Assembly (NCBI GenBank): GCA_900549415.1
Contig: URNX01000004.1
Span: 19,967-83,966 of the forward strand
Direction of reading: 5' to 3'
Length of the DNA stretch: 64,000 bases
DNA from: an uncultured bacterium
Lineage (GTDB): Bacteria; Verrucomicrobiota; Lentisphaeria; Victivallales; UBA1829
Made by a program: the position numbers and the translations under genes. Numbering within the stretch: the stretch's first letter is position 1; every line of letters starts with the position of its first letter. Positions 8,907-63,788 of this stretch are shown here, in pieces. The notes under the pieces were generated by a model. It ran no database searches and was not told where the DNA came from. It was given only the letters and a program-made list of their open reading frames with translations.

Positions 8907-9641
8907 TCAGCGCAGTTCGGAGGTGTAATACCATTGCGCTTTCACCGTGTCGCTTCCGTGAACTCCGGTGTTGGAGAGGGCGGCCGTGTGACCGTCGTAA
9001 TAGAGCATGTTCAGCCGCTGCTGATGACGGTACGTGGCGCTGTTGTAGTGTCCGGATGCGCCGGTTTCGCCGTACTGCAGCCAGCGGGCGTAGTCGCTGT
9101 TGTCGTAATTCAGCAGAGCCGCCATGCCGTCCATGAACTGAAAGTGTTTGGAAGCGTTCCGCATTTTTGCCAGACGGAAGGTGAGAAGCGAACCATTTGT
9201 GTTGAGATCGGCGGCATTCGCTCCGGAGTTGATTCCGTAGCTGTGGTTGATCTGCAGTGAGGTTCCTTTCTTGGTCGGACAGCAGAGCGCGGCCCAGTTG
9301 AACACGGTCGGAGTTTTCTTCTTGACGTTCAGGTATGGCGGCATGGAATTCTGCCAGACACATTCGTCTCCGACTTTTGCTGCGGAAGAGAGGTTGATGA
9401 CATATCCGTCGTAGTCGTTTGAGTATGCCGCCGACGCCGTGCCGAACTGTTTGAGGTTGCTGAGACAGGAGATGGCGCGTCCTTTTTCTCTTGCCGAGTT
9501 CAGCGCGGGCAGGAGCATCCCGGCGAGGATCGCGATGATCGCGATCGTTACCAGGAGCTCTATGAGCGTAAATCTGCGGGATCCCCGCTTGAAATGAAAT
9601 ATGAAACGGGAAATGTTTCTTCTGTTCTGATGAGATTTCAT
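8907..9641 (-). CDS. Prepilin-type N-terminal domain / H-X9-DG family protein (pseudopilin-like), copy A
   Basis: The N-terminus is ...[39 protein letters not shown]. The C-terminal H-X9-DG motif is [12 protein letters not shown]. Confidence 0.85.
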
Positions 9642-19354: not shown

Positions 19355-19390
19355 AAAAGTTGCAAAAGAGCCTGTCGCGGGGACAGGCTC
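19355..19390 (-). terminator. Rho-independent terminator after the secretin pair
   Basis: Stem gagcctgtc (19368-19376) pairs with gacaggctc (19382-19390). On the minus strand it is followed by UUUUGCAACUUUUUUCC. Confidence 0.65.
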
Positions 19391-19401: not shown

Positions 19402-21054
19402 TCACTGTTTGACCGGTTTGCTTTTGGCGGGGCGTCCGGGGGCGTCGGCTGGGGCGTCCCAGTCGCATTGTGCGACAAGCACGAGTTCTGAGAATTTAGT
19501 GGAACTGGATACGCTTGAGAACAGATAGCCGAGGTACGGAATGTCCATGAGGAACGGAACGCCTGTGGCGGATTTGACAACTTCCTGTTTTTTGAGTCCG
19601 CCGATCACAAAACTGTTCTTTCCGTGCGGAAGGCTGACCTCCTGCGTCACGACGCTGTTCGCCGAGATTCTCGGTGTGCCGTTTGATTCAAAACCGAGCA
19701 GACTTGAGTTGTTCAAAGTGATTTTGAACCGTGTTTCATCCAGGTTCACGGAGGCGTTTTCGACGTTCATGGAGAAGCCGAATCCGGTGAATTTTGTGAC
19801 TTCCTGGCGGTTGCCGCGTCCGACGGGAATCTTGTCAGCGTCCTGCTCAAGTTTTCCGATCAGCATGGAGAGCAGTTCATACGGGCCGAGGTCTTTGAGC
19901 GAGTGAGAGGCTGCTGGAACGGAGGTGTCCACATAGAAAATCTGTGTTTTGCGTTCGAGGGTTGCGGGGGTATTGTTGCGGATGAGCAGTTCGCCCGTGT
20001 ACGCGACTTTTGCTTTGCCGATGCTGACGAGAAAATCAATGTAGCGTGAGTTCCATTTCGGGTTGAAATTATAGAAACTTGTCCGTTCGGAACCGGTCTG
20101 TCCGAGAGTTCCGCCGTATGCGGCCGCCCAGTTGTCGCGGTAACGTCCCCCGACGGAGAAGAGGTCAACTCCCTGATTGTTTTTCCACGCCTGGAAGTCG
20201 ATGCCCATTTTATCATCGTTTTCTCTGGTGATTTCGTAGACGGAAATTTTAAGGCGCACTTGCGGGATGGGAACATCGTAGAGCTTCAGCATTTTATCGA
20301 TGTTGGGCATGGTGTAGTTTGTGACGTCGAAGACGAGCCAGTTGAGGTCCGGATCGGCGGCGACGACATCCTGTCCCTGCCAGATTTCAGTGACGTCTGT
20401 GATGTTCATTCCGACGTTTTGGATGAGCTGCATGAGATTCCGTGCGGGTACGAATTTCGGCATATAGATGAAAGTCTGCGTTCCGCTGTTTGCACCCATT
20501 TGCGGTTTGTCGAGCAGCTTCACGAGTGTATCGAATCCCATGCCGTTTTCATGGTCTTTGAACCGGTACTCTTCGGCGCTGATGATGAGAAGCCCGGTTC
20601 CGTCGGCATATTTCAGACACTCGACGGCGGTGTTGCTTCCAAGCTGTGCGGGCGGGGCGTAGGTCGGCTGCGAGCTGACCGGTTCGGCGGAAGGTGCGCC
20701 GACGGTTGCCTGATACGGCATTGCCGCCGTGTTCATCGGGAAAATCTGCTGCATGCTGGTGTTGCCGACCCGTTTCGCCTGCACCATCTGGCGGATGTAG
20801 TCGCGGAGTTCATAGGGGGCTGCGTGTTTGAGCAGATAGCATTTTGTGACGACGCGCGGATCGTTGTTGTCCCGGATGAAATGGACAGTGTCTGTTTCAT
20901 CTTTGACATGAACGTTGAGGATAGCCTCGATCCGGGAGCTGTCGTATCCTCCGCTGTTGTTGAAGTTGGAATCGCGCGGTGTGACGGGCGGCAGATCTGC
21001 CGCATGCACGGTAATAACGGAAAGAAGAAGCGGAATGAGCAGATGTTTTTTCAT
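19402..21054 (-). CDS. Secretin-family outer-membrane channel protein, paralog 1
   Basis: Signal peptide MKKHLLIPLLLSVITVHA. The C-terminal secretin signature is IGGLKKQEVVKSATGVPFLMDIPYLGYLFSS. Confidence 0.8.
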   Translation of the reverse strand: MKKHLLIPLLLSVITVHAADLPPVTPRDSNFNNSGGYDSSRIEAILNVHVKDETDTVHFIRDNNDPRVVTKCYLLKHAAPYELRDYIRQMVQAKRVGNTSMQQIFPMNTAAMPYQATVGAPSAEPVSSQPTYAPPAQLGSNTAVECLKYADGTGLLIISAEEYRFKDHENGMGFDTLVKLLDKPQMGANSGTQTFIYMPKFVPARNLMQLIQNVGMNITDVTEIWQGQDVVAADPDLNWLVFDVTNYTMPNIDKMLKLYDVPIPQVRLKISVYEITRENDDKMGIDFQAWKNNQGVDLFSVGGRYRDNWAAAYGGTLGQTGSERTSFYNFNPKWNSRYIDFLVSIGKAKVAYTGELLIRNNTPATLERKTQIFYVDTSVPAASHSLKDLGPYELLSMLIGKLEQDADKIPVGRGNRQEVTKFTGFGFSMNVENASVNLDETRFKITLNNSSLLGFESNGTPRISANSVVTQEVSLPHGKNSFVIGGLKKQEVVKSATGVPFLMDIPYLGYLFSSVSSSTKFSELVLVAQCDWDAPADAPGRPAKSKPVKQ

Positions 21055-21066
21055 GGTTCTGACTCC

Positions 21067-22485
21067 TTATTTCAGCTTTATGAGTTTTCCGGCTTGCGGA
21101 CTCTGACGGGCGGTATCGGCCATTTCTGCTGTGACCGTCATGCAGACACGGGTTTTCTCCCGGGTTGTCGTGGTAGTGCTGAACAGGTATTTGAGAATCG
21201 GGATTTCAGACAGGAACGGAACGCCGATGGTCTGTTCAACCTCTTCGGATTTATCCCATGCCGCGAGAATTTTTTCGGTGTTCAGTTCGATGGTTGTGTT
21301 TCCGGTGAATTGGCTGGTTTCGATGAGTTCGGTTCCGTAATTGTTCCGTTCAACGGCTCCGGCGACCTGGATGTCGTATCCGAAAAAGAGAGTTCCGGGC
21401 ATCCCCGCATACTGCCCCGGCGCATAGTCCGGGATTGTGAAATCGACTTCCGTCCCTGCGTGCAGGCAGACTGTCGGGGCGAGGATTTTTAGATAGAGCT
21501 GGTTGGTGCCTTCCGGCAGTCCGGAAATGGCGCTCGGGACGACGGCGGTGTAGTCGTTGTTGGTTTTTGTGATGTTCTGGAACTGCGGGTTGAAGAGCAT
21601 GGAGTAGTTTTTCGTATCGGAATTCAGAACGGTCATATCGGCGGAATTGCGGATTTCCGCTTTGCCGTTCTGCTGAAGCAGGCGGATGAAGCTGGCGTCG
21701 AACTGCGGAGCGAAAAAGAATCCGCCGACGGGACCGGACGCTGCTTGAAGAGCCGCGGTTCCGCCCGATGTAATGCTGAAAGAATCCCATGCCGTCTGGA
21801 AGATGTTGAGTCCGGGACCGTTCTTCCATGCGAGATATTCAATGCCCATGTCGCGGAGAGTGCTTTCGCGCACTTCATAAACCTTGAAATGAAGATTGAT
21901 CTGCGGAGCCGGGCGGTCGAGCCAGGCAAGAAACTGGTACATGAATCCGGAATTGGAGGCGTTGTCCTTCCAGTAGATCTGATTGGAATTTTTGTCGTAT
22001 CCGTAGAGGGAACCGTAAGGCCCTTCGTTGATGACAGCGTTGACGGTTACGTTGATGAGATCCTGTCCGGAGCGGTACTTCGGACGATAGACGGCACGAG
22101 TGATTCCGGTTCCGCGGATAATGTCGCCGGGAACTTTGCCGTCGATTTCGACGTTGCGGTCAGCCTTTGCGATGAAGTCGTCGACGTAAGGCATCATGTG
22201 GACGGGACATGTGACCGTCAGAATCTGCTGATTGCTGTTTCCGTAGTCAATGCAGTTGACGGCGGAGTTCATGTTGTACCGTTTGACGATGCTCATGACC
22301 CACGGCATGAGGTCGTTTGCCTGTGTGTACTTGAGGATGTAGATTTTCGAGACCATGTAGTCCTGCGCGTCATCCTGGACGAACCGCAGAGTTCTGGTTC
22401 CGGACGGATTGTCTTCCGCCGCGTCGGCCGGAAATTCCCCGGCGAGCAACGGCAGAACGGAGCATAGAAGCCATGTTTTGTTCAT
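21067..22485 (-). CDS. Secretin-family outer-membrane channel protein, paralog 2
   Basis: C-terminal signature GVPFLSEIPILKYLFSTTTTT. N-terminal blocks are shared with paralog 1 (FVQDDAQDYMVSKIYILKY vs FIRDNNDPRVVTKCYLLKH). It lies 12 bp upstream of paralog 1. Confidence 0.8.
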   Translation of the reverse strand: MNKTWLLCSVLPLLAGEFPADAAEDNPSGTRTLRFVQDDAQDYMVSKIYILKYTQANDLMPWVMSIVKRYNMNSAVNCIDYGNSNQQILTVTCPVHMMPYVDDFIAKADRNVEIDGKVPGDIIRGTGITRAVYRPKYRSGQDLINVTVNAVINEGPYGSLYGYDKNSNQIYWKDNASNSGFMYQFLAWLDRPAPQINLHFKVYEVRESTLRDMGIEYLAWKNGPGLNIFQTAWDSFSITSGGTAALQAASGPVGGFFFAPQFDASFIRLLQQNGKAEIRNSADMTVLNSDTKNYSMLFNPQFQNITKTNNDYTAVVPSAISGLPEGTNQLYLKILAPTVCLHAGTEVDFTIPDYAPGQYAGMPGTLFFGYDIQVAGAVERNNYGTELIETSQFTGNTTIELNTEKILAAWDKSEEVEQTIGVPFLSEIPILKYLFSTTTTTREKTRVCMTVTAEMADTARQSPQAGKLIKLK

Positions 22486-22589
22486 AATAGAATCCCCCCT
22501 TTGATGGAGGGAAGATAATGCCGTTCCGGAGGAAAATCAAACAGGGAACGGCATGGGCGGAAACGTTTGTTTCATGGTTCCATGCGCCG

Positions 22590-22628
22590 GAAAAAGGGCA
22601 AAAAAAATCCCGGAGCAAGTCCGGGATT
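22590..22628 (-). terminator. Rho-independent terminator after the TRL lipoprotein gene
   Basis: Stem aatcccgga (22606-22614) pairs with tccgggatt (22620-22628). On the minus strand it is followed by UUUUUUUGCCCUUUUU. Confidence 0.7.
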
Positions 22629-22648: not shown

Positions 22649-22966
22649 TTATTCGCCGTAGACAACGGTCTTGTAGCTGCCGTAGATGCCGAGGATGTTC
22701 AGGACTTCCTGGTTGACCCAGCCGACCTTTGTGATCTTGGCATCGCTGCAGGCCGCGTTGATGGAGGCGTCGCCGCTGGCGAAGCATCCGAACATGGTCT
22801 GGCATTTTGCCTCGCCCTTCTTGGAGTAGCGCATTTCGCCGTTGCCGACGGTAACGGGCAGTTTGACGCTGGTGTAGACGAGTCCGAGCGGGAATGAGGT
22901 TGCGCATCCCGTCAGGACAGCGAGGGACGCCAGAGAGACTGCAGTGACAATCGCTTTGATTTTCAT
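22649..22966 (-). CDS. TRL-like small lipoprotein
   Basis: Lipobox LAVLTGC. The 105-aa sequence GLVYTSVKLPV...GWVNQEVLNILGIYGSYKTVVYGE resembles the TRL family from memory. AAGGAG RBS upstream. Confidence 0.65.
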   Translation of the reverse strand: MKIKAIVTAVSLASLAVLTGCATSFPLGLVYTSVKLPVTVGNGEMRYSKKGEAKCQTMFGCFASGDASINAACSDAKITKVGWVNQEVLNILGIYGSYKTVVYGE

Positions 22967-23077
22967 GGAAAAGCTCCTTAGTTTGTTGGTTTTCTTCTAT
23001 ACACTGACAATATACAATGAATTGCCACGGAAAACAAATGGAATTCGTAAAAATCCATGAAAAAAAACTCGTGCGCA

Positions 23078-23105
23078 TTGAAAAAATGCAAATCGGCTGT
23101 AATGT
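23078..23105 (+). promoter_or_regulatory. Candidate sigma70-like promoter for the Bro-N::Fic gene
   Basis: TTGAAA (23078-23083), N16, then TAATGT (23100-23105), about 60 nt upstream of the ATG at 23165. Confidence 0.35.
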
Positions 23106-23164
23106 ATGAACGTTCAACCGCTTGCCGTTCAGGACGGCGGCTTTTCCCAGCAGGACTGATAAAG

Positions 23165-24058
23165 ATGAATCATAAAATTTCAATACGTTTCTTCAATGAT
23201 CGCGAAGTCCGCGCCGCTTGGGACGATGTGTCTGGGCAATGGATGTTTTCCGTTGTCGATATCATCGCTGTTCTGACGGAAAGCGCGAATCCGCGTAAAT
23301 ACTGGAGTGTGCTGAAGTCGCGTTTGAAAAAATCAGATTCACCGCTTGCGGAAAGCTGCATACAGCTGAAAATGACTGCGGCGGATGGGAAAAAATACTT
23401 GACAGACTGTCTGGGGCAGAAGGATATTCTTTCATTGATTGAATCGATTCCCAGCCGTTTTTCTATTCCGTTTATCCAGTGGTTGACTTACAGCGGAACC
23501 TCCATTGACGGGCAAAGCCGAACAAAAGCCTATGCGCTCTTCGAAAGCGGTCTGCTGGAAAATTTGGAACCGGGAACTGTGAAGAGTTTGCAGCAGATTC
23601 ACTCCTACCTGTTTGGCGGACTTTATGATTTTGCCGGAAAAATCCGGAATAAAAATATCAGCAAGACTGGTTTTCAATTCGCCATGGCGCAATTTCTTCC
23701 CGAAACTCTTGCTGCGATTGAGGCGATGCCTGAATCGACCTATGATGAAATTATTGATAAATACGTGGAAATGAATGTCGCTCATCCTTTCATGGAGGGA
23801 AACGGAAGGAGCACACGCATCTGGCTGGACGGTATGCTGAAACGCGGTTTGAAAAAATGTGTGGACTGGAGTCGTGTCAATAAAAATGATTATCTTGAAG
23901 CTATGCGCAGGAGTGTCGCGGACAGTTCGGAGATTAAGGCGCTGCTTCAGCCGGCTTTGACAGAGAAGATTAATGACAGGGAAATGTTTATGAAAGGAAT
24001 AGATTATTCTTATTATTACGAATCCGATGATCCGGATATGGAACCGGATGATAAATGA
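23165..24058 (+). CDS. Bro-N-like DNA-binding domain fused to a class III (NmFic-like) Fic adenylyltransferase
   Basis: The N-terminus FFNDREVRAAWDDVSGQWMFSVVDIIAVL is Bro-N-like. The Fic core is IHSYLFGGLYDFAGKIR...HPFMEGNGRSTRIWL. A C-terminal SYYYES element sits at the position of the inhibitory helix. Confidence 0.85.
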   Translation: MNHKISIRFFNDREVRAAWDDVSGQWMFSVVDIIAVLTESANPRKYWSVLKSRLKKSDSPLAESCIQLKMTAADGKKYLTDCLGQKDILSLIESIPSRFSIPFIQWLTYSGTSIDGQSRTKAYALFESGLLENLEPGTVKSLQQIHSYLFGGLYDFAGKIRNKNISKTGFQFAMAQFLPETLAAIEAMPESTYDEIIDKYVEMNVAHPFMEGNGRSTRIWLDGMLKRGLKKCVDWSRVNKNDYLEAMRRSVADSSEIKALLQPALTEKINDREMFMKGIDYSYYYESDDPDMEPDDK

Positions 24059-26165: not shown

Positions 26166-27638
26166 TCAGTTGCTGAAGAACGCGTAGGGCAGCCACTGGG
26201 AGTCGGCGCAGTCGGCGACGCCCATGACCCAGAGAATGGTTTCCGACGGTTTGGCCGGTACGGGGGCCACTCCGGCAAGCAGTTCATGCACTCCGCTTTC
26301 CAGTGTGATGTCGCAGTACTGATTGTGCGGGACGGTGTCGAATGACGGCGTCACCCAGCCGCCGTCTCGCCCGAAACGGTAGACTCCGTCGACCCAGACG
26401 CGGGAGGTTGCGTTGCAGTTGAAGATGACACGCACTTTTTTCGTTTCGTCGATCGTGAACTGGAAACGCATCATGTAAAGCGAGTTCGGGGGAACTTCGA
26501 ATGCGTTCAGATAGTTGAAGGTGCCGGGAATGGTGTACTCCTTGTCGAGGTGGAGATACTCCGGAATGGGAAGGATCTCGTGCCAGCGGTTCCAGTTGCG
26601 GTGAATGCCGAACTGAACGGGGATGAGGAACGGTGTGAAGTCCGGCTGGTCGCAGGCGCGCGGCGTATGCGCTTCGATTCTGGGCGCGAGCTCAAGAATC
26701 TGTTCGATGAAGGCGTCGAGCGTTTGCGGATAATCCATAACGAGTTCCGGATCGCTGAGCTGGATCTTTTCCGAGACGGGCGCGAGCCAGCGTTCGGAAA
26801 TGGAATCGGGCTTGAGCAGGCCGACGAGTTCACCCGCCATTCCTGCGTTGACCGGAGTGTTGCGTGCGCAGTTTGCGGCAATGAGGACTGTTTTTTCAAA
26901 ATCGCCGTTTCCGAGCAGATACGCGAGAAGGATGAAGCCGGTGTTCATGATGCCGTCTTCATAATTTTCATTGTCAAATTTGGCGAGGAATTGGCGGCGG
27001 GCTTCCTTCCAGTCGTTTTCCCTGGCGCAGAGTTCGCGGGTGAAGCGGACCGCTTCCGCAAGTCTGGATTCGCCGGGAATGGCCGCGAGCGCCGCGTTGA
27101 GAAGTGCTTCGGGGTTGCTTTCAATAAACGCATTGCTGAGCAGAACGGCAAAGAATTCCGCTGCGAAAACGCCGTCTTTATCATGGTCGACGCAGGCGTC
27201 TTCGTAGGTGATTTTCAATGCGGTGTCGGGTTTTGCCGGATTGAGGAACGCCCAGAGATCGGCGCGGCGGGCGGCTCCGAAGTTGTCGCTGAAATAGTCG
27301 TCGAAATTTCCGGACCAGGGCGGCATGATGCTGTTCCTGAGGTTGCGGAGGGCGATTCCGTATTCCGCGTCATAGTAACGGATATGATCAAGCCAGCATT
27401 GTGCAAAGAAATTGCGTTCGGGGACGGGATGCGGCATTTTGGACAGCTCGTCAAGCCAGAGAATCTGAAAATCGAGAAAACAGCTGGAGGAATCCGGATC
27501 GGGGAGCGGATCGTAAAAGGTCAGCTCCAGTGGTTCGTGTGCTCCCAGATAAGGACGGCCGAGGTTTTCTCCGATGGTTTTACCGAGGAGAGCTCCCTTG
27601 ATTTTGTGACTCCAATATTCTTTATCCATAAAAAGCAC
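26166..27638 (-). CDS. ADP-ribosylglycohydrolase-family protein with a C-terminal beta-sandwich-like extension
   Basis: The N-terminal block IKGALLGKTIGENLGRPY is a variant of the ARH G..GDALG motif. About 190 aa of non-ARH sequence follow at the C-terminus. Confidence 0.65.
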   Translation of the reverse strand: MLFMDKEYWSHKIKGALLGKTIGENLGRPYLGAHEPLELTFYDPLPDPDSSSCFLDFQILWLDELSKMPHPVPERNFFAQCWLDHIRYYDAEYGIALRNLRNSIMPPWSGNFDDYFSDNFGAARRADLWAFLNPAKPDTALKITYEDACVDHDKDGVFAAEFFAVLLSNAFIESNPEALLNAALAAIPGESRLAEAVRFTRELCARENDWKEARRQFLAKFDNENYEDGIMNTGFILLAYLLGNGDFEKTVLIAANCARNTPVNAGMAGELVGLLKPDSISERWLAPVSEKIQLSDPELVMDYPQTLDAFIEQILELAPRIEAHTPRACDQPDFTPFLIPVQFGIHRNWNRWHEILPIPEYLHLDKEYTIPGTFNYLNAFEVPPNSLYMMRFQFTIDETKKVRVIFNCNATSRVWVDGVYRFGRDGGWVTPSFDTVPHNQYCDITLESGVHELLAGVAPVPAKPSETILWVMGVADCADSQWLPYAFFSN

Positions 27639-27724
27639 CTCTCACATAATTGCTGATTATACAGGCTGAAAAAACACTATCACGGAAAACTTTAAATGTC
27701 AAATGCTTTTTCTCTTTTTATTTG

Positions 27725-27766
27725 ATTTTTTTTCATAAAAAACGTCCGGTTCGGCGGAACCGGACG
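27725..27766 (-). terminator. Rho-independent terminator after the portal-like gene
   Basis: Stem cgtccggttc (27743-27752) pairs with gaaccggacg (27757-27766). On the minus strand it is followed by UUUUUUAUGAAAAAAAAUC. Confidence 0.7.
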
Positions 27767-27775
27767 GGGAGAGAA

Positions 27776-29164
27776 TCAGGCGTTTGTTTTTTCGCGGGTG
27801 ATCCGTTCATTTTCTTCATCGTAAGAGGCGTCGGTGAAATCATTGCGGCGGAGCCATTCGTGGATGCTGCGTGCGGAGAGGGGGAGTCCGGCGTTCTTGG
27901 CATTCCAGAGGTCGAGCACGTCGGATGCGGCAACTCCGCCTTCGTTGAAATCGCGGTTGACGCGGAAGATCACTTCTTCCGGGTTGGCTCCGCACCATCC
28001 GGCGGCAATGCGGAGAATCTGCAGCATTGTCTTTTCCGCAGTTCCGGCAACGGCGCGCATGAGAGCTGTTTTGACTGCAAGACGAGTCTTCAGCGCTTCG
28101 CCGGATTCGTTGCTGCGGCTGTCGAGTGTGATTCCCATGTTCTGGGCAATGGCGTGCAGATCGTTCTGGGCGGCGCGCATCTCCTGAAGTCCGGAGCCGG
28201 AAATTTCCAGGTAGCTTCCGGAAGCGTCGGGGGACTCTGTGTGAATGTAGTTGCCCGCGCCCATCATCGGCGGTCCGTCAAGCTGGAATCCTTTGAGAAA
28301 CAGAGTCGACTGCGCCTGCATGAAAAGCGCATGGCGGTAATCGGCTTCACCGCGGTAGATGGCAAGACACGCATTGGCAAGCGGCAGGAGCGGAGGCGTC
28401 GGGACGGCCGCGCCGGAGTCGTTTACGTTCGCAAAGACAAACGGAATGCGGTTGAGGCGGCGTCCGCGGATTTCCGGGAAACACTCGTCGGGAAGAAGAC
28501 ACGGGTTCGTGCGGAAGGCGCGAAATTCATCCGGCGTCATGCGGACCGAACAGTATTCGCCGTCGGGAGAGAGTGTGCAGAGACGGACTTTGCGGCGGAA
28601 TTCCCAGCCTTCCGGACCGCGTTCCCAGCCGGATTCATCAAGCAGAAGCGAGGTGAGAGCGGAGGAATCGCCGTTTTCGCAAGTCCAGTCGAGAATCTGC
28701 GGTGCGGCGCAGAGAGTCATGACGGGAACGGCGTCGGGGGAGACTGTCGCAGGCGGAACGTCGAGGAGGAGTCCGCAGCGCCCGTAGAGAAGCTGGAAGA
28801 GGTTCAGTCTGCGGAGAGTGTCGTCAAGCGGGAGACCGTCGCTGGAGGCGGTTGTGCGGATGGCGCGGATGCGTTCGGGCAGTTCGACGGCCTCCGGCGG
28901 TTCGCGGTGCATGATGCCGAGCATGGTGGCGATTGTGGTCGCGAGATAATTGAAATAATTCGCGCGGGCTTTGTAGGCGTCGTACCGGCGCATTCCGAAC
29001 TGGGCGTCGGCCATCTGCCCTTCGGTCCGGGGGAGATAGCGTTCGCCGGCGTGTTTGACTTCGCGCTCTCCGGCAAAGCAGTCGGAACAGACCCGCCAGT
29101 CTTCAGCGGCGCAGAGGTATTGCGGATTCAGCAGATCGCGCAGATTCAAATTGTGATTCAGCAT
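27776..29164 (-). CDS. Phage portal-like protein (DUF4055-type), orphan
   Basis: 463 aa from MLNHNLNL. The block GEREVKHAGERYLPRTEGQ...YDAYKARANYFNYLATTIATMLGIM resembles the DUF4055 portal N-terminal signature from memory. AAGGAG RBS before the ATG at 29164. Confidence 0.5.
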   Translation of the reverse strand: MLNHNLNLRDLLNPQYLCAAEDWRVCSDCFAGEREVKHAGERYLPRTEGQMADAQFGMRRYDAYKARANYFNYLATTIATMLGIMHREPPEAVELPERIRAIRTTASSDGLPLDDTLRRLNLFQLLYGRCGLLLDVPPATVSPDAVPVMTLCAAPQILDWTCENGDSSALTSLLLDESGWERGPEGWEFRRKVRLCTLSPDGEYCSVRMTPDEFRAFRTNPCLLPDECFPEIRGRRLNRIPFVFANVNDSGAAVPTPPLLPLANACLAIYRGEADYRHALFMQAQSTLFLKGFQLDGPPMMGAGNYIHTESPDASGSYLEISGSGLQEMRAAQNDLHAIAQNMGITLDSRSNESGEALKTRLAVKTALMRAVAGTAEKTMLQILRIAAGWCGANPEEVIFRVNRDFNEGGVAASDVLDLWNAKNAGLPLSARSIHEWLRRNDFTDASYDEENERITREKTNA

Positions 29165-29267
29165 AAAAGGCTCCTTTCTGATGCTGGTTTTCCGGAATAT
29201 GTCAACCGAACGTCTTCTGTTCTTGACAATTTGGAAAAACAGCGTTAAATTATCGAAAACAGAGAAA

Positions 29268-31559
29268 ATGAGGGAGCAAATGGAGAGCGGAAACGGCAGG
29301 GATTCGGCAGAAAAGACAATTCTGATTGACCGGACGGTTGTATCGGGAAAAACGGCTCCGGCGTCATCCGGTAAAAACGCGGTGAAGACCGGATTCGGCA
29401 CCGGTTTCTTCCGGAAGAAACGGAAAGACGTGGATTCGCGGATCGAAGAGCTGCGCGAGCATCACAATCCCGGGAACGTCAATTTTTCGGGAGATGAACT
29501 CAAACTTGATTCTCTCGATGATGAATATGAAGTCCGGGAGAAGATCGCCGAGGGCGGACAGGGACTGCTCTTCCGCGGATTCGACCGTCGGCTGCACCGT
29601 CTGGTCGCCATCAAATCCCTGCGCAAAGAGGCGGCGGAGAACGGGGAACAGCGGCGTTTTTTCCTTTCTGAAGCGCGCGTGACCGCCCAGCTTGATCATC
29701 CCGCGATCGTGCCGATCTATTCTCTGAAATCCGACGGAGAAAACGGGCTTCATCTCGCCATGAAGATGATCAACGGCATTACCCTTAAAGACTATCTGAA
29801 ACAGGTCGCTACACACTACCGTCTCGACGGAGTCCGCGCGTTCGACGAGGAGAAGAGTCTGCGGAACCGTCTGGAAATTTTTCTCAAGGCGTGCGATGCG
29901 CTCGAATACGCGCACAGCCGTAACATCATGCACCGCGATTTGAAACCGGAAAACATCATGACCGGAGAGTATCATGAAACCTATATCATGGACTGGGGAA
30001 TTGCGCGTCCGATTCTGCCGCAGCCGGAAGGCGCCTCCGTTCTGGCGGGCACGCCGCAGTATCTTGCGCCGGAGGCGATCCGCGGGGAACCATGCGACCA
30101 GCGCGCCGATATTTTCGCGATGGGGGCAATCCTGTTTGAACTTGTTACGCTTCATCCCGCATTTTCCGGCGAGACGCCGGAGGAGGTCATGTGCGCGATT
30201 CGCGACGGGCAGAAGAATCCGCCGGAACATGAGTTCGGAGCGAAAATTGACGGTGATCTGAAAGCGGTCATTTGCAAGGCGCTTGCGAACGATCCAGCGG
30301 AACGCTATCAGCAGGCGGGGGAACTTTCCGCCGACCTGAGACGCTGGATGATGGATCTTGAAGTGTCCGCAAAGCCCGACAATCTTCTGCGGAAATGTTT
30401 CCGCTGGAGCCGGAGCCACAGCCGTCTGCTGCTGCTGCTCTTCCTGACAGCGCTGCTGGCGGGCGTTTCGGCTCTCTCCTATTCGCTCTTCCAGAGTTTC
30501 CGTTTTTCAGAGGAGATGCGGCTGCGCGACAATGCACTGAGCACTGCGTTTTCAATCTGTTCACGTGCGGCATACCGGCTCGATGAACAGTTCCTCAAAC
30601 TGGAACAGGCAACGTCGCTTCTTGCGGCGGATACCGCGTTTCTGCTGAATTATGATCTGCATGAACACTCCGCCGGAACCGCCGCCGTGTCCCTGGCGGA
30701 ATTTCCGGAACGGAAATCGGACACCATGCTGCGTTCCCGTTTTCACCACGGGACCATTGATCCCGCCGTGCTGGTCTACACTGCAACTCCCGATACCGCG
30801 CTTCCGCTGAAGACGCGTCTGGAACCGCTTTCCCGTTTTATTCCGCGTCTGCGGCAGATTATTCTGGAGAGCGGAAATGTCGCATGGACCACGGAGGCGC
30901 AGGAAAAGGCGTTTCTGGAGGGAACGCCGGTGATCCGCGTGCTGTTCGGTTTTCCCGACGGACTTTATGCCGCATACCCGGCGTCGGGCAAATTCCCGCG
31001 CGGCTATGATCCGCGCCTGCGCCGCTGGTATCGTATTGCGGAACATGCGAAGCAGGGGACGGTTTGGACGGAGCCTTATATCGACAGTATTCCGGAGTTC
31101 GGGCTGGTTATCTCCTGCAGTGCTCCGATCCGCCTTGCCGGAGGAACCGCGAGCGGCGTCTGCGGACTCGACATCTCCATTGCCAAGCTCGTGGAGGAAC
31201 TTCGTCTGGGCGGCAACAGCGAGGCGGTTGCGGAGGAGAAGGCGATTGTGACGAACACGGGGGACATCATCGTTTCAACCGGACGCGACTTTGCCGCCGG
31301 AAATCTGCGCGGATACCGTCGGGCGGATGAAAAAGTCGTTTTCGCCAATCTCGGCGATCCCGTCCTTCTGGACAGAATGAACCGCAAGCAGTACGGAGTC
31401 AGCATTCAGCGCGATGTGCAGGGACGCGAGTTCGTCTACGCGTTCTGCCGGATCCGTTCGGTCGACTGGTTCTATGTGGAGAAAATGGAACTGAAGCGTC
31501 TGGTTGCTTCCTCAGAACAGCGCGGAGTAGAGCCCGGTCAGCAGAATCAGCAGCATTAA
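29268..31559 (+). CDS. Hanks-type Ser/Thr protein kinase with one TM helix and a periplasmic dCache_1-like sensor domain
   Basis: Kinase motifs VAIK, HRDLKPENIM, DWGIA and GTPQYLAPE. TM helix LLLLLFLTALLAGVSALSYSLF. Cache block YDPRLRRWYRIAEHAKQGTVWTEPYID...GVCGLDISIAKL. The start is ambiguous between 29268 and 29280. Confidence 0.85.
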   Translation: MREQMESGNGRDSAEKTILIDRTVVSGKTAPASSGKNAVKTGFGTGFFRKKRKDVDSRIEELREHHNPGNVNFSGDELKLDSLDDEYEVREKIAEGGQGLLFRGFDRRLHRLVAIKSLRKEAAENGEQRRFFLSEARVTAQLDHPAIVPIYSLKSDGENGLHLAMKMINGITLKDYLKQVATHYRLDGVRAFDEEKSLRNRLEIFLKACDALEYAHSRNIMHRDLKPENIMTGEYHETYIMDWGIARPILPQPEGASVLAGTPQYLAPEAIRGEPCDQRADIFAMGAILFELVTLHPAFSGETPEEVMCAIRDGQKNPPEHEFGAKIDGDLKAVICKALANDPAERYQQAGELSADLRRWMMDLEVSAKPDNLLRKCFRWSRSHSRLLLLLFLTALLAGVSALSYSLFQSFRFSEEMRLRDNALSTAFSICSRAAYRLDEQFLKLEQATSLLAADTAFLLNYDLHEHSAGTAAVSLAEFPERKSDTMLRSRFHHGTIDPAVLVYTATPDTALPLKTRLEPLSRFIPRLRQIILESGNVAWTTEAQEKAFLEGTPVIRVLFGFPDGLYAAYPASGKFPRGYDPRLRRWYRIAEHAKQGTVWTEPYIDSIPEFGLVISCSAPIRLAGGTASGVCGLDISIAKLVEELRLGGNSEAVAEEKAIVTNTGDIIVSTGRDFAAGNLRGYRRADEKVVFANLGDPVLLDRMNRKQYGVSIQRDVQGREFVYAFCRIRSVDWFYVEKMELKRLVASSEQRGVEPGQQNQQH

Positions 31560-39650: not shown

Positions 39651-40436
39651 TTATTTTTCTTCAGCATACCAGAAGGCAACGGTCGGCGCGACTTTTTCGC
39701 GGATGGAGGCGTTGCTTTCCGCTCCGGCGTGGAGGTCGGGGAAGAGAACGTTGGTCCGCATATTGTGACACGCCCAGTAGCGGTCGGTTCCGGTTGAGCC
39801 GAAGAGAGTGTTGACGCCGCCGAGTCCCCTCACTAATGCACTTGAATAGGGACTGCTTCCATTGCCGCGCGAGCAGGCGAGCATGACGAAATCCGACGGC
39901 GCGCGGGAGGCGCGCAGGATTTTCGTGTTGTTGCTCATGAAACCCCGGTCGACGCCTTTGTAGTGCCAGCGTCCGAGTTTGTTGCTGGCGGCGATCCACT
40001 TGCTGGCGTAGTTCTGATTGTGCCAGATGCCGTCGCCGTTCATGGCGTAGGTATATTCAAAGAGACGGGAGTTGGCGTTGTGCGGAATTCTCTGTTCGGA
40101 GCATTGCAGGAATTTTGCCGTTTTGCTGATATATCCGGCGGAGAGCAGCATCTGTCCCCATGGCGCCCAGTCGTAGTAGGGGGTGGCCGAGGAGTGGGTC
40201 GGCTGGAATTTCCAGCCTTCCGCTTTATCGACGCGCATCATGAACCAGTCGTCGCCGTCGGAATTGTACATACCGATGCAGAGCCCGACCTGTTTCTGAT
40301 TTGCGAGACAGTTGATCGCTCTTGCCTTGCTGCGAGCCGCGTTCAGGGCGGGCAGAAGGATGCCTGCCAGGATTGCGATGATCGCAATCGTTACAAGCAA
40401 CTCTATAAGGGTGAAAAAACTGTTTCTTTTGATCAT
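39651..40436 (-). CDS. Prepilin-type N-terminal domain / H-X9-DG family protein (pseudopilin-like), copy B
   Basis: N-terminus [43 protein letters not shown]. The C-terminal [12 protein letters not shown] is a DL variant of H-X9-DG. Confidence 0.85.
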
Positions 40437-42747: not shown

Positions 42748-43509
42748 TTACAGCTGATTGCCGTATGCGTCGTGGAGGAAGCCGGGCTTGCTGACACCGT
42801 CTTTGATGCGGATTTGCAGCTGAGAGAGCCCTTCCGTGCCGACATGACCGTCTGCAAAGCCCAGGTTTGCGCGTGACTGGTGCATCAGCGCCATGCCGTA
42901 TTCCGGGGAGTTGGGGTTGACGTAATAGAAGTTCTGCCCTTTAGGAATGCTTGCCGTTCCAGCGCTGTTGCTGTCGCATATGTAAAAATATTCGCTTGGC
43001 TTTTTTACCTTGTTGTTTTGGAAAACCCACAATGCGGAGTCATAAAGATAAGGCGCTTTTGTCGTTCCCGCGTATTTTTGTTCATAGGGAGTGCTGAAGG
43101 GCAGTTTCACTCCGTAAGTGTTGTAATGGTTCGGGCGTCCGGTCGCGGCATCAAATGCGGGGCGGATATTGGATGGACAGTAGGTATACGTTTTGGCTTT
43201 CCATTGATTCTTCTGCATGTATTCCAGTCCATAAATGGTTTGCGACCAGGTGATGCTGCCGGTCGGTCCATAGACTGGCCACATATCCTGATTGTCGCCT
43301 GCGTACATCTGGAAGTCGAGAAGAACCTGCTTGATGTTGCTTGTGCAGCTGATGGCGCGTCCCTTTTCGCGGGCCGAATTGAGTGCGGGGAGAAGCATGC
43401 CGGCTAGGATGGCGATGATGGCAATTACCACGAGGAGCTCTATAAGGGTAAATCTCGCGGACTTCCTTTTGGGAAGTGGAACGGGGTGTTTGTCAGAATG
43501 AAGGTTCAT
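42748..43509 (-). CDS. Prepilin-type N-terminal domain / H-X9-DG family protein (pseudopilin-like), copy C
   Basis: N-terminus ...[40 protein letters not shown] and C-terminal [13 protein letters not shown] prefer the ATG at 43509 over the long upstream extension. Confidence 0.85.
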
Positions 43510-43574
43510 AGCGTTGTCTGCCTTTTTTTGTTTGAACACAGCGGGGGAACGTTTCCGCATTCCCCCGGGTCGTT

Positions 43575-44258
43575 TCACTGTTTTGGATTCAGAACGAGGC
43601 TGAATTCGAGTGAGGATTCCGTAATCATGCCGGAATACGGGGTGAACATCAGACGCAGCTGGAGAACATCGGCTTTCCATTTGCGCAGATCCTGAAGAAT
43701 GACGGCGAAGTTTCCGGTGATGATCCACGAGGCGTTCGGGGCGTCGACGACAACTGTTGCTGTTCCGTCGGCCGGAGCGGGAATCACTTTCTGGTACGGT
43801 TTCTTCGGGTCGAACGGTTTGCTGTAATTGAACGTTTCGCCGTTGACCGTGACCTTGATTCCGACACCGGGTTCATAGCGGATGCTCTGTTCGTACATCA
43901 GTCTTCCGCAGGAGAACGGCTGAGCGGATTCCACGGAGAGTTTCGCCTGAAGTTCGGTCGGGGATTTTTTCGTGCACAGGATTTTCACTGGAATGCGTTC
44001 GCCGTCCGCCGTGGTGAGGCGTCCCTCCTGTTCGCTTCCGTCGAAGACGAAATCCTTCATGGGCTTGTATTTGCCGTTGTACTGCTGGAGTTTGAAACCT
44101 GCGCCCCATGCCGGATTCGGGAATGCGTTGTGGACGACAACGGATCCGCGGTCCTTGTAGTAGTCGAGCTGCGGTTGCCGTTCAGCGGCTCCAGCGGAGC
44201 AGAGGGCGAGCAGCCCGGCTCCGATTAACAGTTTGCGTGTCAGTGAAACGAAGTTCAT
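43575..44258 (-). CDS. Secreted hypothetical protein
   Basis: Signal peptide [25 protein letters not shown] and a beta-rich sequence with no motif I recognise. Confidence 0.6.
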
Positions 44259-62813: not shown

Positions 62814-63599
62814 TTAAAAGTCAAGAGCTCCGGTATTGCCCCAGTTGCGGCTTCCGGTCTGTTCCGCCATAAGCCGGTCGCTGTACATTCTGGAATCCGG
62901 GTTCTCGAGCCCTTTCCACGAGCGTTTGCTGACGACATGCCCGTCGAGATAAGCGATGTTCGCATAGAGTGAATGCGGTCTGCCGACCCACAGATGCTGC
63001 GAAGTAAAAACTTCAGCAGAGCCCCCGGCGCTGCCCACACTACTCCCCGAGTATCTATTTGAGGCGGAGGTGTTTAGAAAATCGGAATCAAAGAACATAT
63101 ATGCACGCGACGCCGCTTTGACCATCGTTACTTTTAAGGAGTCCGAACCCCAGGTTTCTGCGGCGACATAACTGAGGCGGGTTGAGGACGTTGAACGGTC
63201 TTCCGGACAGCGGAACGTGTTCCAGGAACCATTGCCGACAGGGGTTCCCGTTGAAGAAGTTTTCGCATTCATATATCTTGTTCCGAATGCGTATGGCCAA
63301 TGGTATTTGATTGAATAGCGATGCCCCGGCACTTCCCAGGAAGAGACCGACAGAATCGGCGGCATGGCATAATCGTTGAAATCGTTTCTGTATGTAGCGG
63401 AAGCTGTGCCGATCTGTTTCAGGTTTGAAGCGCAGGAGATTTTGTGAGCCGTTCTTCTGGCCGAATTCAGCGCGGGCAAGAGCATGACCGCCAGGATTGC
63501 GATGATGGCTATTACCACAAGGAGCTCTATAAGGGTGAATTTACGGATTATCCCTCTGAAACGGAAGGTGTGCGGATGTTGCGGATATTTAATTTTCAT
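62814..63599 (-). CDS. Prepilin-type N-terminal domain / H-X9-DG family protein (pseudopilin-like), copy D
   Basis: N-terminus ...[40 protein letters not shown] and C-terminal [13 protein letters not shown] prefer the ATG at 63599. Confidence 0.85.
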
Positions 63600-63788
63600 C
63601 GTTTGTCGAGCCTTTCTGTCTTTTGTTCGTTTCCCTGTTCGAAAAAGCTTACGTCTATAATTATACGACATTTTAGGGAAAAAGCAACAGGGGAAATGGA
63701 GAAATATATTAGGAATCCTGACAAAAATATACGATATAATGCCAAATGCATTTTCCCTCTGTATTTTCCGGGGCGCGGGGGGAAGTCT

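What the first reader, a model, noticed from the sequence alone, without database searches (positions are those of the whole stretch)
19402..22485. Orphan tandem secretin paralogs with no secretion or pilus machinery nearby
Two secretin-family genes (472 aa then 550 aa) lie 12 bp apart on the minus strand and end with their own terminator. Both carry the C-terminal secretin signature (GVPFLSEIPILKYLFS and GVPFLMDIPYLGYLFSS). They share N-terminal blocks but are clearly diverged.

Secretins normally form homo-oligomeric rings and sit inside gsp/pil/tad/T3SS operons. Within this 64 kb there is no ATPase, platform protein, PilMNOP/GspC or prepilin peptidase. A co-transcribed paralog pair suggests either a hetero-oligomeric channel or two stacked or alternative channels. 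In the context of the pseudopilin-CAZyme modules it is the obvious candidate outer-membrane conduit.
Basis: partly seen in the sequence, partly recalled or inferred. Interest (0 to 1): 0.7.

Follow-up and report, generated by a model that had tools for sequence, protein, structure and literature searches.

The report
Conserved two-secretin operon in Victivallales
Two old, diverged copies of a secretin (the protein that forms the large outer-membrane pore of secretion and pilus machines) sit side by side as a stand-alone operon in every related gut bacterium examined, which suggests a two-protein pore, something not yet described for bacteria.

Summary
secA (21067-22485, minus strand, 472 aa) and secB (19402-21054, minus strand, 550 aa) are 12 nt apart. 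A GGAG ribosome-binding site lies in the spacer and a strong terminator hairpin follows secB. Both pass the Pfam Secretin threshold. They are homologous end to end but only about 20% identical, and both are under purifying selection (dN/dS about 0.1). No type II secretion or type IV pilus core gene lies in the 64 kb window.

The pair is not a local oddity. In 79 of 79 testable species-level Victivallales genomes, secA is followed directly by secB, while the flanking genes differ. About two thirds of these loci also carry a small lipoprotein gene next to the pair; the window does not. A sister secretin family, found in Sumerlaeota/BRC1 among others, is also always tandem and has its own lipoprotein gene.

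In Victivallis lenta the GspE-GspE-GspF genes lie about 0.94 Mb from the pair and have no secretin beside them. In one species they are the pair's direct neighbours.

My best reading is an obligate two-secretin outer-membrane unit, probably one mixed ring, serving dispersed T2SS-like machinery. The mixed ring and the substrates are inferred, not shown. It is a new variant of a known kind, and I found no publication describing it.

The parts
21067..22485 (-). secA: upstream secretin paralog, 472 aa. Sec signal peptide without a lipobox, two N-domains of the Secretin_N type, and a C-terminal secretin domain.
   Evidence: ORF. Pfam PF00263 at 32.9 bits against a 27.5-bit cutoff. The AF2 model (pLDDT 60) matched only secretins among its top 40 Foldseek hits, best GspD at E 1e-20. 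Orthologs are 58-97% identical in 80 GTDB genomes. dN/dS 0.08-0.15.
21055..21066 (-). 12-nt secA-secB spacer carrying a GGAG Shine-Dalgarno sequence directly after the secA stop codon.
   Evidence: Sequence TAA GGAGTCAGAACC ATG. In 71 related loci the same junction is mostly -4 to +34 nt.
19402..21054 (-). secB: downstream secretin paralog, 550 aa. Sec signal peptide without a lipobox, an N-domain with a low-complexity insert of about 55 aa, and a C-terminal secretin domain.
   Evidence: ORF. Pfam PF00263 at 65.3 bits. Homologous to secA over its whole length (hhalign E 9e-40). Orthologs 63-96% identical. dN/dS 0.08-0.15.
19364..19390 (-). Intrinsic terminator-like hairpin plus T run that ends the two-gene operon.
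   Evidence: Sequence. RNA fold dG -19.9 kcal/mol, z -4.0, and 0 of 200 shuffles fold as well.
22486..22604 (-). Leader and promoter region of the operon. It runs from the terminator of the upstream TRL gene to the secA start and has a purine-rich RBS (AAAGGGGGGA).
   Evidence: Sequence. The terminator of the upstream gene lies at 22629-22605. No sigma-70 consensus match, no Rfam match and no conserved element across species apart from the RBS.
22649..22966 (-). Neighbouring TRL-family (PF13146) lipoprotein gene, 105 aa. Probably not part of the unit; listed because it sits where a pilotin gene might be expected.
   Evidence: Pfam TRL E 1.5e-20. It has its own strong terminator before secA. 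It is adjacent to the pair only in the window's own species.

Best explanation
secA and secB form a two-gene operon with tightly coupled translation. They encode two anciently diverged, full-length secretin paralogs that act together as one outer-membrane unit.

Most likely both proteins are exported by Sec, reach the outer membrane and co-assemble into a single gated channel made of both kinds of subunit. Alternating protomers would predict an even subunit number.

This channel would be the outer-membrane end of a T2SS-like (type IV filament) machine whose genes are scattered around the chromosome in this lineage. In Victivallis lenta the inner-membrane motor and platform (two GspE/PilB-type ATPases and one GspF/PilC) are encoded about 0.94 Mb away.

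In about two thirds of related species a lipoprotein of about 145 aa is encoded next to the pair. It is the likely pilotin or assembly partner. In the window's species that gene is not adjacent.

Shown here:
- Both proteins belong to the secretin family, and the secA model has a secretin fold.
- The two are homologous over their full length.
- Both are under purifying selection.
- secA-secB adjacency is invariant and the operon stands alone.
- The gsp genes are dispersed.

Inferred:
- Physical co-assembly of the two proteins.
- The link to the GspE-GspE-GspF genes.
- A pilotin role for the lipoprotein.
- The nature of the exported substrates (glycan-degrading enzymes or the abundant prepilin-like proteins).
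For: Family and fold:
- Both proteins exceed the Pfam Secretin cutoff.
- The top 40 Foldseek hits of the secA model are all secretins.
- The two are homologous end to end.

Both genes are maintained:
- dN/dS is 0.08-0.15 for each.
- Ortholog alignments show 59% and 67% mean column identity.

Coupling:
- The spacer is 12 nt and holds an SD sequence.
- In 71 complete loci the junction is mostly -4 to +34 nt, with thirteen 4-bp overlaps.

Co-retention:
- secA is followed by secB in 71 complete and 7 contig-truncated loci, plus one locus with a frameshifted secA. That is 79 of 79 testable GTDB species genomes.
- Flanking genes are not conserved. Compare the window with Victivallis.
- One genome has a second diverged secA'-secB' pair, so the pair duplicated as a unit (L060).

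Same design elsewhere:
- A sister secretin family is tandem in 75 of 80 metagenome loci; the other 5 are cut by contig ends.
- The upstream and downstream gene trees of that family mirror each other.
- At least one member comes from Sumerlaeota/BRC1.

Lipoprotein partner:
- It is adjacent in 46 of 71 loci.
- An unrelated lipoprotein of about 280 aa precedes the sister-family pairs in 29 loci.

Link to machinery:
- T2SSF-T2SSE-T2SSE is the direct divergent neighbour of lipoprotein-secA-secB in L069.
- In V. lenta the same three genes lie between housekeeping genes with no secretin beside them, on the same 5.13-Mb contig as the pair.
- The first ATPase passes the NCBIfam GspE cutoff.
Against: - Every secretin studied so far forms a ring of one protein, and nothing here shows physical contact between secA and secB.
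- Classical T2SS secretin rings have 15 subunits, an odd number that does not suit strict alternation.
- The link to GspE-GspE-GspF rests on one adjacency in 80 genomes. I estimate a direct-neighbour adjacency would arise by chance in about 0.04 of such samples, and any adjacency within 10 kb in about 0.4.
- I could not inventory a whole genome, so another T2SS or type IV pilus locus with its own secretin may exist.
- The candidate pilotin gene is missing from the window and from Victivallis loci.
- The AF2 monomer models are poor (pLDDT 42 for secB and 60 for secA).
- The neighbour-joining tree groups (A,B) against (Cup,Cdown). Pairing therefore arose twice or was homogenised, and the distances are saturated.
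Confidence: 0.5

Rival explanations
1. There are two separate single-protein pores. secA and secB each build their own ring, and the rings serve different inner-membrane machines or different cargo. One example would be one ring per GspE paralog; another would be secretion versus a pilus or DNA uptake. The genes are co-transcribed only so that they are regulated together.
For: - All solved secretins are rings of one protein (PDB hits).
- The lineage also has two tandem GspE-type ATPases, which would allow one-to-one matching.
- The two proteins share only about 20% identity, as expected for paralogs with separate functions.
Against: - secA without secB never occurs in 79 genomes.
- The pair duplicated as a unit in L060.
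- Stop and start codons overlap, which implies matched amounts of the two proteins.
- A second family keeps the same pairing.
- Independent functions would be expected to separate or be lost differentially at least sometimes.
Confidence: 0.27
2. There is one pore and one helper. One paralog, probably secB with its stronger secretin signature, forms the membrane pore. The other has become a non-pore partner: a periplasmic ring, a cap, or an assembly or targeting scaffold. This would resemble the divergent GspDL that accompanies GspD in the mitochondrial T2SS-like system.
For: - secA matches only the last 73 positions of the Pfam Secretin model and scores just above the cutoff (32.9 bits against 27.5).
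- secA-family profiles lie further from classical GspD than secB-family profiles do.
- Eukaryotic GspD plus GspDL is a precedent for a conserved divergent secretin paralog (PMC8134430).
Against: - The secA model keeps the full secretin architecture of long beta-hairpins and aligns with GspD over about 480 columns.
- secA aligns with secB through the whole barrel region.
- secA is as constrained as secB.
Confidence: 0.18
3. The pair has no joint function. It is a recent redundant duplication with one decaying copy, or a secretin brought in by a filamentous phage or another mobile element.
For: - The best PDB sequence match for both family profiles is phage f1 pIV.
- A Fic gene and a gene with a portal-like DUF4055 domain lie a few kb upstream.
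Against: - dN/dS is about 0.1 for both genes.
- The two proteins share only 19-22% identity, so the duplication is ancient.
- The pair is present in all 79 testable genomes.
- secA has no match in 50,697 phage records.
- secB has only remote YscC/AscC matches on plasmids.
Confidence: 0.02

Closest known systems
T2SS secretin GspD (PulD, EpsD, XcpQ; NCBIfam TIGR02517)
   Same: It has a C-terminal secretin domain with the GxPxL..IPxLGxLF motif, Secretin_N-type ring-building N-domains and a Sec signal peptide. It is the best structural match to the secA model (Foldseek E 1e-20) and the best NCBIfam match of the sister family.
   Different: secA and secB score far below the family cutoff (28.7 and 60.5 bits against 351.35). 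No N0/STN domain and no S-domain was detected. They are shorter (472 and 550 aa, against about 650). They are not encoded in a gsp operon. There are always two paralogs rather than one gene.
Mitochondrial T2SS-derived system: GspD plus the divergent paralog GspDL (Horvathova et al. 2021, PMC8134430)
   Same: Two co-occurring, diverged paralogs of the secretin C-domain are retained together across lineages. The system also has duplicated GspE-like proteins. The authors likewise suggest an elaborated pore.
   Different: That system is eukaryotic and mitochondrial. Its N-domains are split off as separate proteins and its genes are nuclear, not in an operon. The authors called the pairing eukaryote-specific. 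Here both paralogs are full-length bacterial proteins encoded in one operon.
Dispersed T2SS gene sets and stand-alone secretin genes: the five lsp clusters of Legionella (PMC6617341) and the orphan secretin XqhA of Pseudomonas aeruginosa (from my own knowledge)
   Same: In both cases the secretin gene lies away from most of the machinery genes. Flanking genes around lspDE vary between species, as they do around secA-secB.
   Different: Those systems have a single secretin per machine. In Legionella, lspD still sits beside lspE.
Filamentous phage secretin pIV (PDB 7ofh)
   Same: It is a short secretin with few N-domains and no S-domain. It is the best PDB sequence match for both family profiles (E 3e-16 for secA and 3e-7 for secB).
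   Different: No phage genes surround the pair, and secA has no match in the phage collection. The pair is a conserved chromosomal locus across an entire order.
Secretin-pilotin pairs (PulD-PulS, GspD-AspS, PilQ-PilF/Tgl, RcpA-TadD)
   Same: A small outer-membrane lipoprotein gene lies next to non-lipoprotein secretin genes in 46 of 71 related loci.
   Different: The lipoprotein matches no known pilotin family. It shows only a sub-threshold DUF3887 hit and no PDB match. It is absent from the window. Its role is inferred only from position and its lipobox.

Membership tests
Secretin superfamily (Pfam PF00263) | C-terminal secretin domain scoring above the Pfam gathering threshold | tested here: met
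   secA 32.9 bits and secB 65.3 bits against a cutoff of 27.5.
Secretin superfamily (Pfam PF00263) | Secretin fold: N-domains followed by a double-walled beta-barrel protomer | tested here: met
   For secA, the top 40 Foldseek PDB hits are all secretins, E 1e-20 to 7e-12. The secB model is too poor to use (pLDDT 42), but secB aligns with secA end to end.
Secretin superfamily (Pfam PF00263) | Assembly into a 12-16-subunit outer-membrane ring | not testable with these tools
   This needs biochemistry, cryo-EM or multimer prediction.
T2SS GspD (NCBIfam TIGR02517) | Whole-protein score above the equivalog cutoff (351.35 bits) | tested here: not met
   secA 28.7 bits, secB 60.5 bits.
T2SS GspD (NCBIfam TIGR02517) | N0 domain followed by N1-N3 | tested here: inconclusive
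   Pfam found no STN or N0 hit. Secretin_N is sub-threshold in secB (12.4 bits). Some secA orthologs carry a precomputed PF03958 hit. The secA model shows two N-domains and weak Foldseek matches to GspD N0-N1 crystal structures (E 7.5e-4).
T2SS GspD (NCBIfam TIGR02517) | Encoded within or beside gspC-M genes | tested here: not met
   No gsp core gene lies in the 64 kb window. Only 1 of 80 related loci has T2SSE or T2SSF within 10 kb.
Type IV pilus secretin PilQ (NCBIfam TIGR02515) | Score above the cutoff (284.35 bits), AMIN domains, and a pilMNOPQ operon | tested here: not met
   secA 37.7 bits, secB 60.4 bits. No AMIN hit. No pilMNOP genes in the window.
T3SS secretin SctC (NCBIfam TIGR02516) | Score above the cutoff (238.45 bits) and a T3SS gene cluster | tested here: not met
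   secA 35.6 bits, secB 69.2 bits. No T3SS genes in the window.
Tad secretin RcpA | Close similarity to RcpA and neighbouring tad/rcp genes | tested here: not met
   Only weak similarity to PDB 8odn (E 0.004 for secB; 1.7e-5 with the family profile). No tad genes in the window.
Filamentous phage pIV | Encoded in an inovirus genome | tested here: not met
   secA has no match in the phage collection. The chromosomal context is conserved across an order.
Self-piloting lipoprotein secretins (HxcQ, BfpB, TcpC) | N-terminal lipobox cysteine | tested here: not met
   The signal peptides MNKTWLLCSVLPLLAGEFPADA|AED and MKKHLLIPLLLSVITVHA|AD have no lipobox (sequences). The single Cys in the secA signal peptide is not in a lipobox context.

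The most novel reading that the evidence does not exclude
Bacteria of at least two phyla, Victivallales in the Lentisphaerota and Sumerlaeota/BRC1, build their type II secretion or type IV filament outer-membrane pore as an obligate ring of two secretin paralogs. In most species the pair comes with a dedicated lipoprotein from a previously unrecognised family. This would be the first hetero-oligomeric bacterial secretin. It would be matched by a duplicated GspE motor and would parallel the GspD/GspDL pairing in the mitochondrial T2SS-derived system.
Probability: 0.4. Interest if true: 0.8.

Novelty: new variant of a known kind. Interest (0 to 1): 0.62.

Why it matters
Secretins are the textbook example of a giant outer-membrane pore built from one protein. 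They are shared by type II and type III secretion, type IV pili and filamentous phage export. A lineage in which two diverged paralogs are always kept together would challenge that rule, whatever the geometry turns out to be.

It would also raise new questions about gating, symmetry matching with the inner-membrane platform, and assembly.

It gives a bacterial counterpart to the unexplained GspD/GspDL pair of the mitochondrial T2SS-derived system.

In practical terms, it points to the probable exit route for the large sets of glycan-degrading enzymes and prepilin-like proteins in Victivallales, which are common but little-studied polysaccharide degraders of human and ruminant guts. It also yields two small lipoprotein families as candidate new pilotins.

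Tried and rejected
- **AF2 monomer models.** The secB model (pLDDT 42) is unusable. The secA model (pLDDT 60) served only to assign the fold. No multimer prediction was available.
- **TRL lipoprotein as pilotin.** Rejected. The gene has its own terminator. It is adjacent only in the window's own species. Homologs elsewhere lie on the opposite strand a few kb away in five loci.
- **ATPase-like genes upstream of the pair in L026 and L029.** These turned out to be FtsK, a RodZ-like HTH protein and a Wzy_C protein, not secretion genes.
- **Shared duplication test.** I asked whether secA and secB are orthologous to the upstream and downstream genes of the sister family, which would mean one ancient duplication. 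HMM cross-scores did not discriminate. The neighbour-joining tree gave (A,B)|(Cup,Cdown) with 100% bootstrap, but distances exceed 2 substitutions per site. The question stays open: one ancient duplication with homogenisation, or two independent duplications.
- **Homology between the two lipoprotein families.** None beyond the signal peptide.
- **RNA elements and conserved leader.** No Rfam hit. No conserved upstream motif apart from the RBS.
- **Phage or plasmid origin.** No support.
- **Literature.** Searches for paired or heteromeric secretins, and for T2SS in Lentisphaerae, Victivallis or Planctomycetes, found nothing on this arrangement.
- **Whole-genome inventory of secretins and T2SS/T4P genes.** Not possible.
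Full report
**1. The observation**

The window holds two adjacent minus-strand ORFs exactly as described. I call them secA (21067-22485, 472 aa) and secB (19402-21054, 550 aa). The 12-nt spacer reads TAA-GGAGTCAGAACC-ATG, so a Shine-Dalgarno sequence directly follows the secA stop codon. A hairpin with a T run follows secB at 19390-19364. It folds at -19.9 kcal/mol, with z -4.0 against shuffles.

The small gene upstream (22649-22966) ends with its own strong terminator at 22629-22605. secA-secB is therefore a self-contained two-gene transcription unit.

**2. Family assignment**

- Both proteins exceed the Pfam Secretin (PF00263) gathering score: 32.9 and 65.3 bits against 27.5.
- Neither comes near any NCBIfam equivalog cutoff for GspD, PilQ, SctC or MshL.
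- Sequence matches to solved secretins are weak and spread over GspD, pIV, PilQ and RcpA.
- The AF2 model of secA has modest confidence (pLDDT 60). Even so, its top 40 Foldseek PDB hits are all secretins, led by T2SS GspD at E 1e-20.
- The secB model is too poor to use (pLDDT 42).
- secA and secB are homologous over their whole length, N-terminal domain included (hhalign probability 100%, E 9e-40, 19% identity). secB carries a low-complexity insert of about 55 residues.
- Both have Sec-type signal peptides without a lipobox (sequences).

They are therefore two full-length, deeply diverged secretin paralogs from a branch outside the named subfamilies.

**3. Surroundings in the window**

Contigs nearly identical to the window occur in many human gut metagenomes. 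Their Pfam-annotated gene calls, together with direct scans, cover all 64 kb.

- The neighbours of the pair are a TRL lipoprotein, Fic, MarR, a lipocalin, a GH78 rhamnosidase and PfkB.
- Further out lie many CAZyme genes, AraC and LacI regulators, and four prepilin-like genes.
- There is no T2SSE, T2SSF, PilMNOP, GspC or prepilin peptidase. My own HMMs agree.
- No Rfam family matches.

The organism is a member of the Victivallaceae. The closest GTDB genome is Lentisphaeria bacterium UBA4640, at 97% identity for secA.

**4. Conservation of the pair**

A scan of one genome per GTDB species found 523 stretches that encode secA relatives. The best 80 loci are all Victivallales or Lentisphaeria.

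- With HMMs built from the ortholog alignments, secA is followed directly by secB in 71 loci with complete genes.
- It is also followed by secB in 7 loci where secB runs off the contig end, and in one locus where secA is frameshifted.
- The one remaining locus ends inside secA. The count is therefore 79 of 79 testable loci.
- The junction is mostly -4 to +34 nt, and thirteen loci have a 4-bp overlap.
- Flanking genes are not conserved. In Victivallis lenta the pair sits between a LacI regulator and an amino-acid permease.
- One genome carries a second, diverged secA'-secB' pair, so the pair was duplicated as a unit (L060).
- Both genes are under purifying selection, with dN/dS 0.08-0.15 across comparisons of 70-97% identity.
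- An exhaustive search of 1.84 billion cluster representatives with secA found only 453 hits at E <= 1e-3. This is a narrow family.

**5. A third gene**

In 46 of the 71 complete loci, a lipoprotein gene of about 145 aa lies directly downstream of secB (39 loci) or directly upstream of secA (7 loci).

- The protein has a lipobox and a conserved C-terminal ...FGFL motif.
- It matches no Pfam or NCBIfam family above threshold, only a faint DUF3887 signal, and no PDB entry.
- It is absent from the window, from the window's species and from the Victivallis loci.

Its position and lipidation make it a candidate pilotin or assembly partner for two secretins that are not themselves lipoproteins. That role is inference.

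**6. The same design in another lineage**

Secretins equally distant from secA and secB form a third family, which I call family C.

- A metagenome scan with family C returned 80 loci.
- 75 of them show two tandem family-C genes. The other five are cut by contig ends.
- A lipoprotein gene of about 280 aa precedes the pair in 29 loci. It is unrelated to the 145-aa lipoprotein.
- The flanks are pst-phoU genes or a pyruvate:ferredoxin oxidoreductase gene, not secretion genes.
- One downstream member is identical to a protein annotated in candidate division BRC1 / Sumerlaeota.
- A neighbour-joining tree recovers secA, secB, upstream-C and downstream-C each as a clade, and the two C subtrees mirror each other. 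The deep split is (A,B)|(Cup,Cdown), with saturated distances.

Whether the pairing arose once or twice is unresolved.

**7. Where the machinery is**

- In one species (L069) the genes T2SSF-T2SSE-T2SSE lie 164 bp from lipoprotein-secA-secB in divergent orientation. No other of the 80 loci has these genes within 10 kb.
- I estimate that a direct-neighbour adjacency would be expected by chance in roughly 0.04 of such samples. The link is suggestive, not strong.
- In Victivallis lenta the orthologous GspE-GspE-GspF genes lie at 3.40-3.42 Mb, between thiI and manC/coaX. They have no secretin, pseudopilin or PilMNOP genes beside them.
- The secA-secB pair lies at 4.35-4.37 Mb on the same contig.
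- The first ATPase passes the NCBIfam GspE cutoff and almost reaches the PilB cutoff. The second ATPase and GspF fall just below their cutoffs. The system cannot be assigned cleanly to T2SS or to type IV pili.
- Dispersed T2SS genes have a precedent in the five lsp clusters of Legionella (PMC6617341).

**8. Interpretation**

Several facts argue that the two proteins depend on each other: the adjacency never breaks, translation is coupled, both genes are equally constrained, the pair duplicated as a unit, and an independent family repeats the design.

- The simplest mechanism is co-assembly into one mixed ring. I put that at about 0.5.
- Two separate pores that are merely co-regulated: 0.27.
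- A pore plus a non-pore helper paralog: 0.18.
- Decay of a redundant copy, or a mobile-element origin, is excluded by the selection data and by the absence of phage or plasmid relatives.

**9. Comparison and novelty**

The pair works like a T2SS or type IV filament secretin but fails the membership tests for GspD, PilQ, SctC, RcpA, pIV and the lipoprotein secretins.

The nearest conceptual precedent is the GspD/GspDL paralog pair of the mitochondrial T2SS-derived system. Its authors regarded that pairing as a eukaryote-specific elaboration (PMC8134430).

Seven literature searches found no description of paired bacterial secretins or of this operon. Public annotations call these proteins 'hypothetical' or 'GspD'.

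I rate it a new variant of a known kind, with interest 0.62. The genomic pattern is robust and surprising for the field. The mechanism still needs multimer modelling or biochemistry.

**10. Caveats**

- Genes in fetched loci were called with my own ORF finder. Some start codons are over-extended, which explains the few large negative gaps.
- Only the 80 closest of 523 GTDB hits were examined.
- No complete genome could be inventoried.
- The tree is distance-based on saturated data.

Noticed in passing
window 8907-9641(-), 39651-40436(-), 42748-43728(-), 62814-63671(-): Four prepilin-like proteins beside CAZyme genes share the N-terminus ...(R/K/F)FTLIELLV(V/T)IAIIAIL... (N_methyl/DUF1559 type). 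The residue just before the Phe is R, K or F, not the canonical Gly at position -1 of prepilin peptidase sites. This hints at atypical processing.
   Followed up: partly
L092:10001-14715 (Victivallis lenta GCA_903645335.1, 3.40-3.42 Mb); also L069:4509-9227: Two full-length GspE/PilB-type ATPases (each with MshEN and T2SSE domains) lie in tandem, followed by one GspF/PilC. They form an isolated three-gene unit among housekeeping genes. This duplicated motor parallels the duplicated secretin.
   Followed up: partly
L012:13118-13573 and 45 other loci (for example L017:3758-4207, L063:13161-13589): A conserved lipoprotein of about 145 aa (lipobox, C-terminal FGFL motif) is encoded directly next to the secretin pair in 46 of 71 Victivallales loci. 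It is absent from the window and has no family or structure match. It is a candidate new pilotin.
   Followed up: yes
L093-L172 (for example L099:5696-9867, L101:7374-11458): A sister secretin family, from Sumerlaeota/BRC1 among others, also always occurs as a tandem pair. In 29 loci it is preceded by an unrelated lipoprotein of about 280 aa with an arrestin-like LDKxxYxPGEPV motif. The pair often sits beside pstCAB-phoU.
   Followed up: partly
L060:209-3161: One rumen Lentisphaeria genome has a second, strongly diverged secA'-secB' pair about 7 kb upstream of the main pair.
   Followed up: partly
window 22649-22966(-): A TRL-family (PF13146) lipoprotein gene lies directly upstream of secA and has its own terminator. 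TRL homologs lie within a few kb of the pair on the opposite strand in L020, L021, L026 and L032. The association is weak and unexplained.
   Followed up: partly
window 23057-24058(+); compare L002:7764-7919: The Fic-domain gene next to the TRL gene varies between strains: it is reduced to a 51-aa ORF in one metagenome contig. An ADH/DeoR insertion between PfkB and the GDSL lipase is present in contigs L002 and L004-L006 but absent from the window.
   Followed up: no
window 26166-29401(-): An ADP-ribosylglycohydrolase gene and a DUF4055 gene (a portal-like domain) lie beside a large Ser/Thr kinase gene (29181-31559, +). This may be a phage remnant or a defence-related island.
   Followed up: no
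L019:2294-3721 and L023:10001-13202: In two MAGs, secA (and secB in L023) is split into two ORFs. These are either assembly frameshifts or rare pseudogenisation.
   Followed up: no
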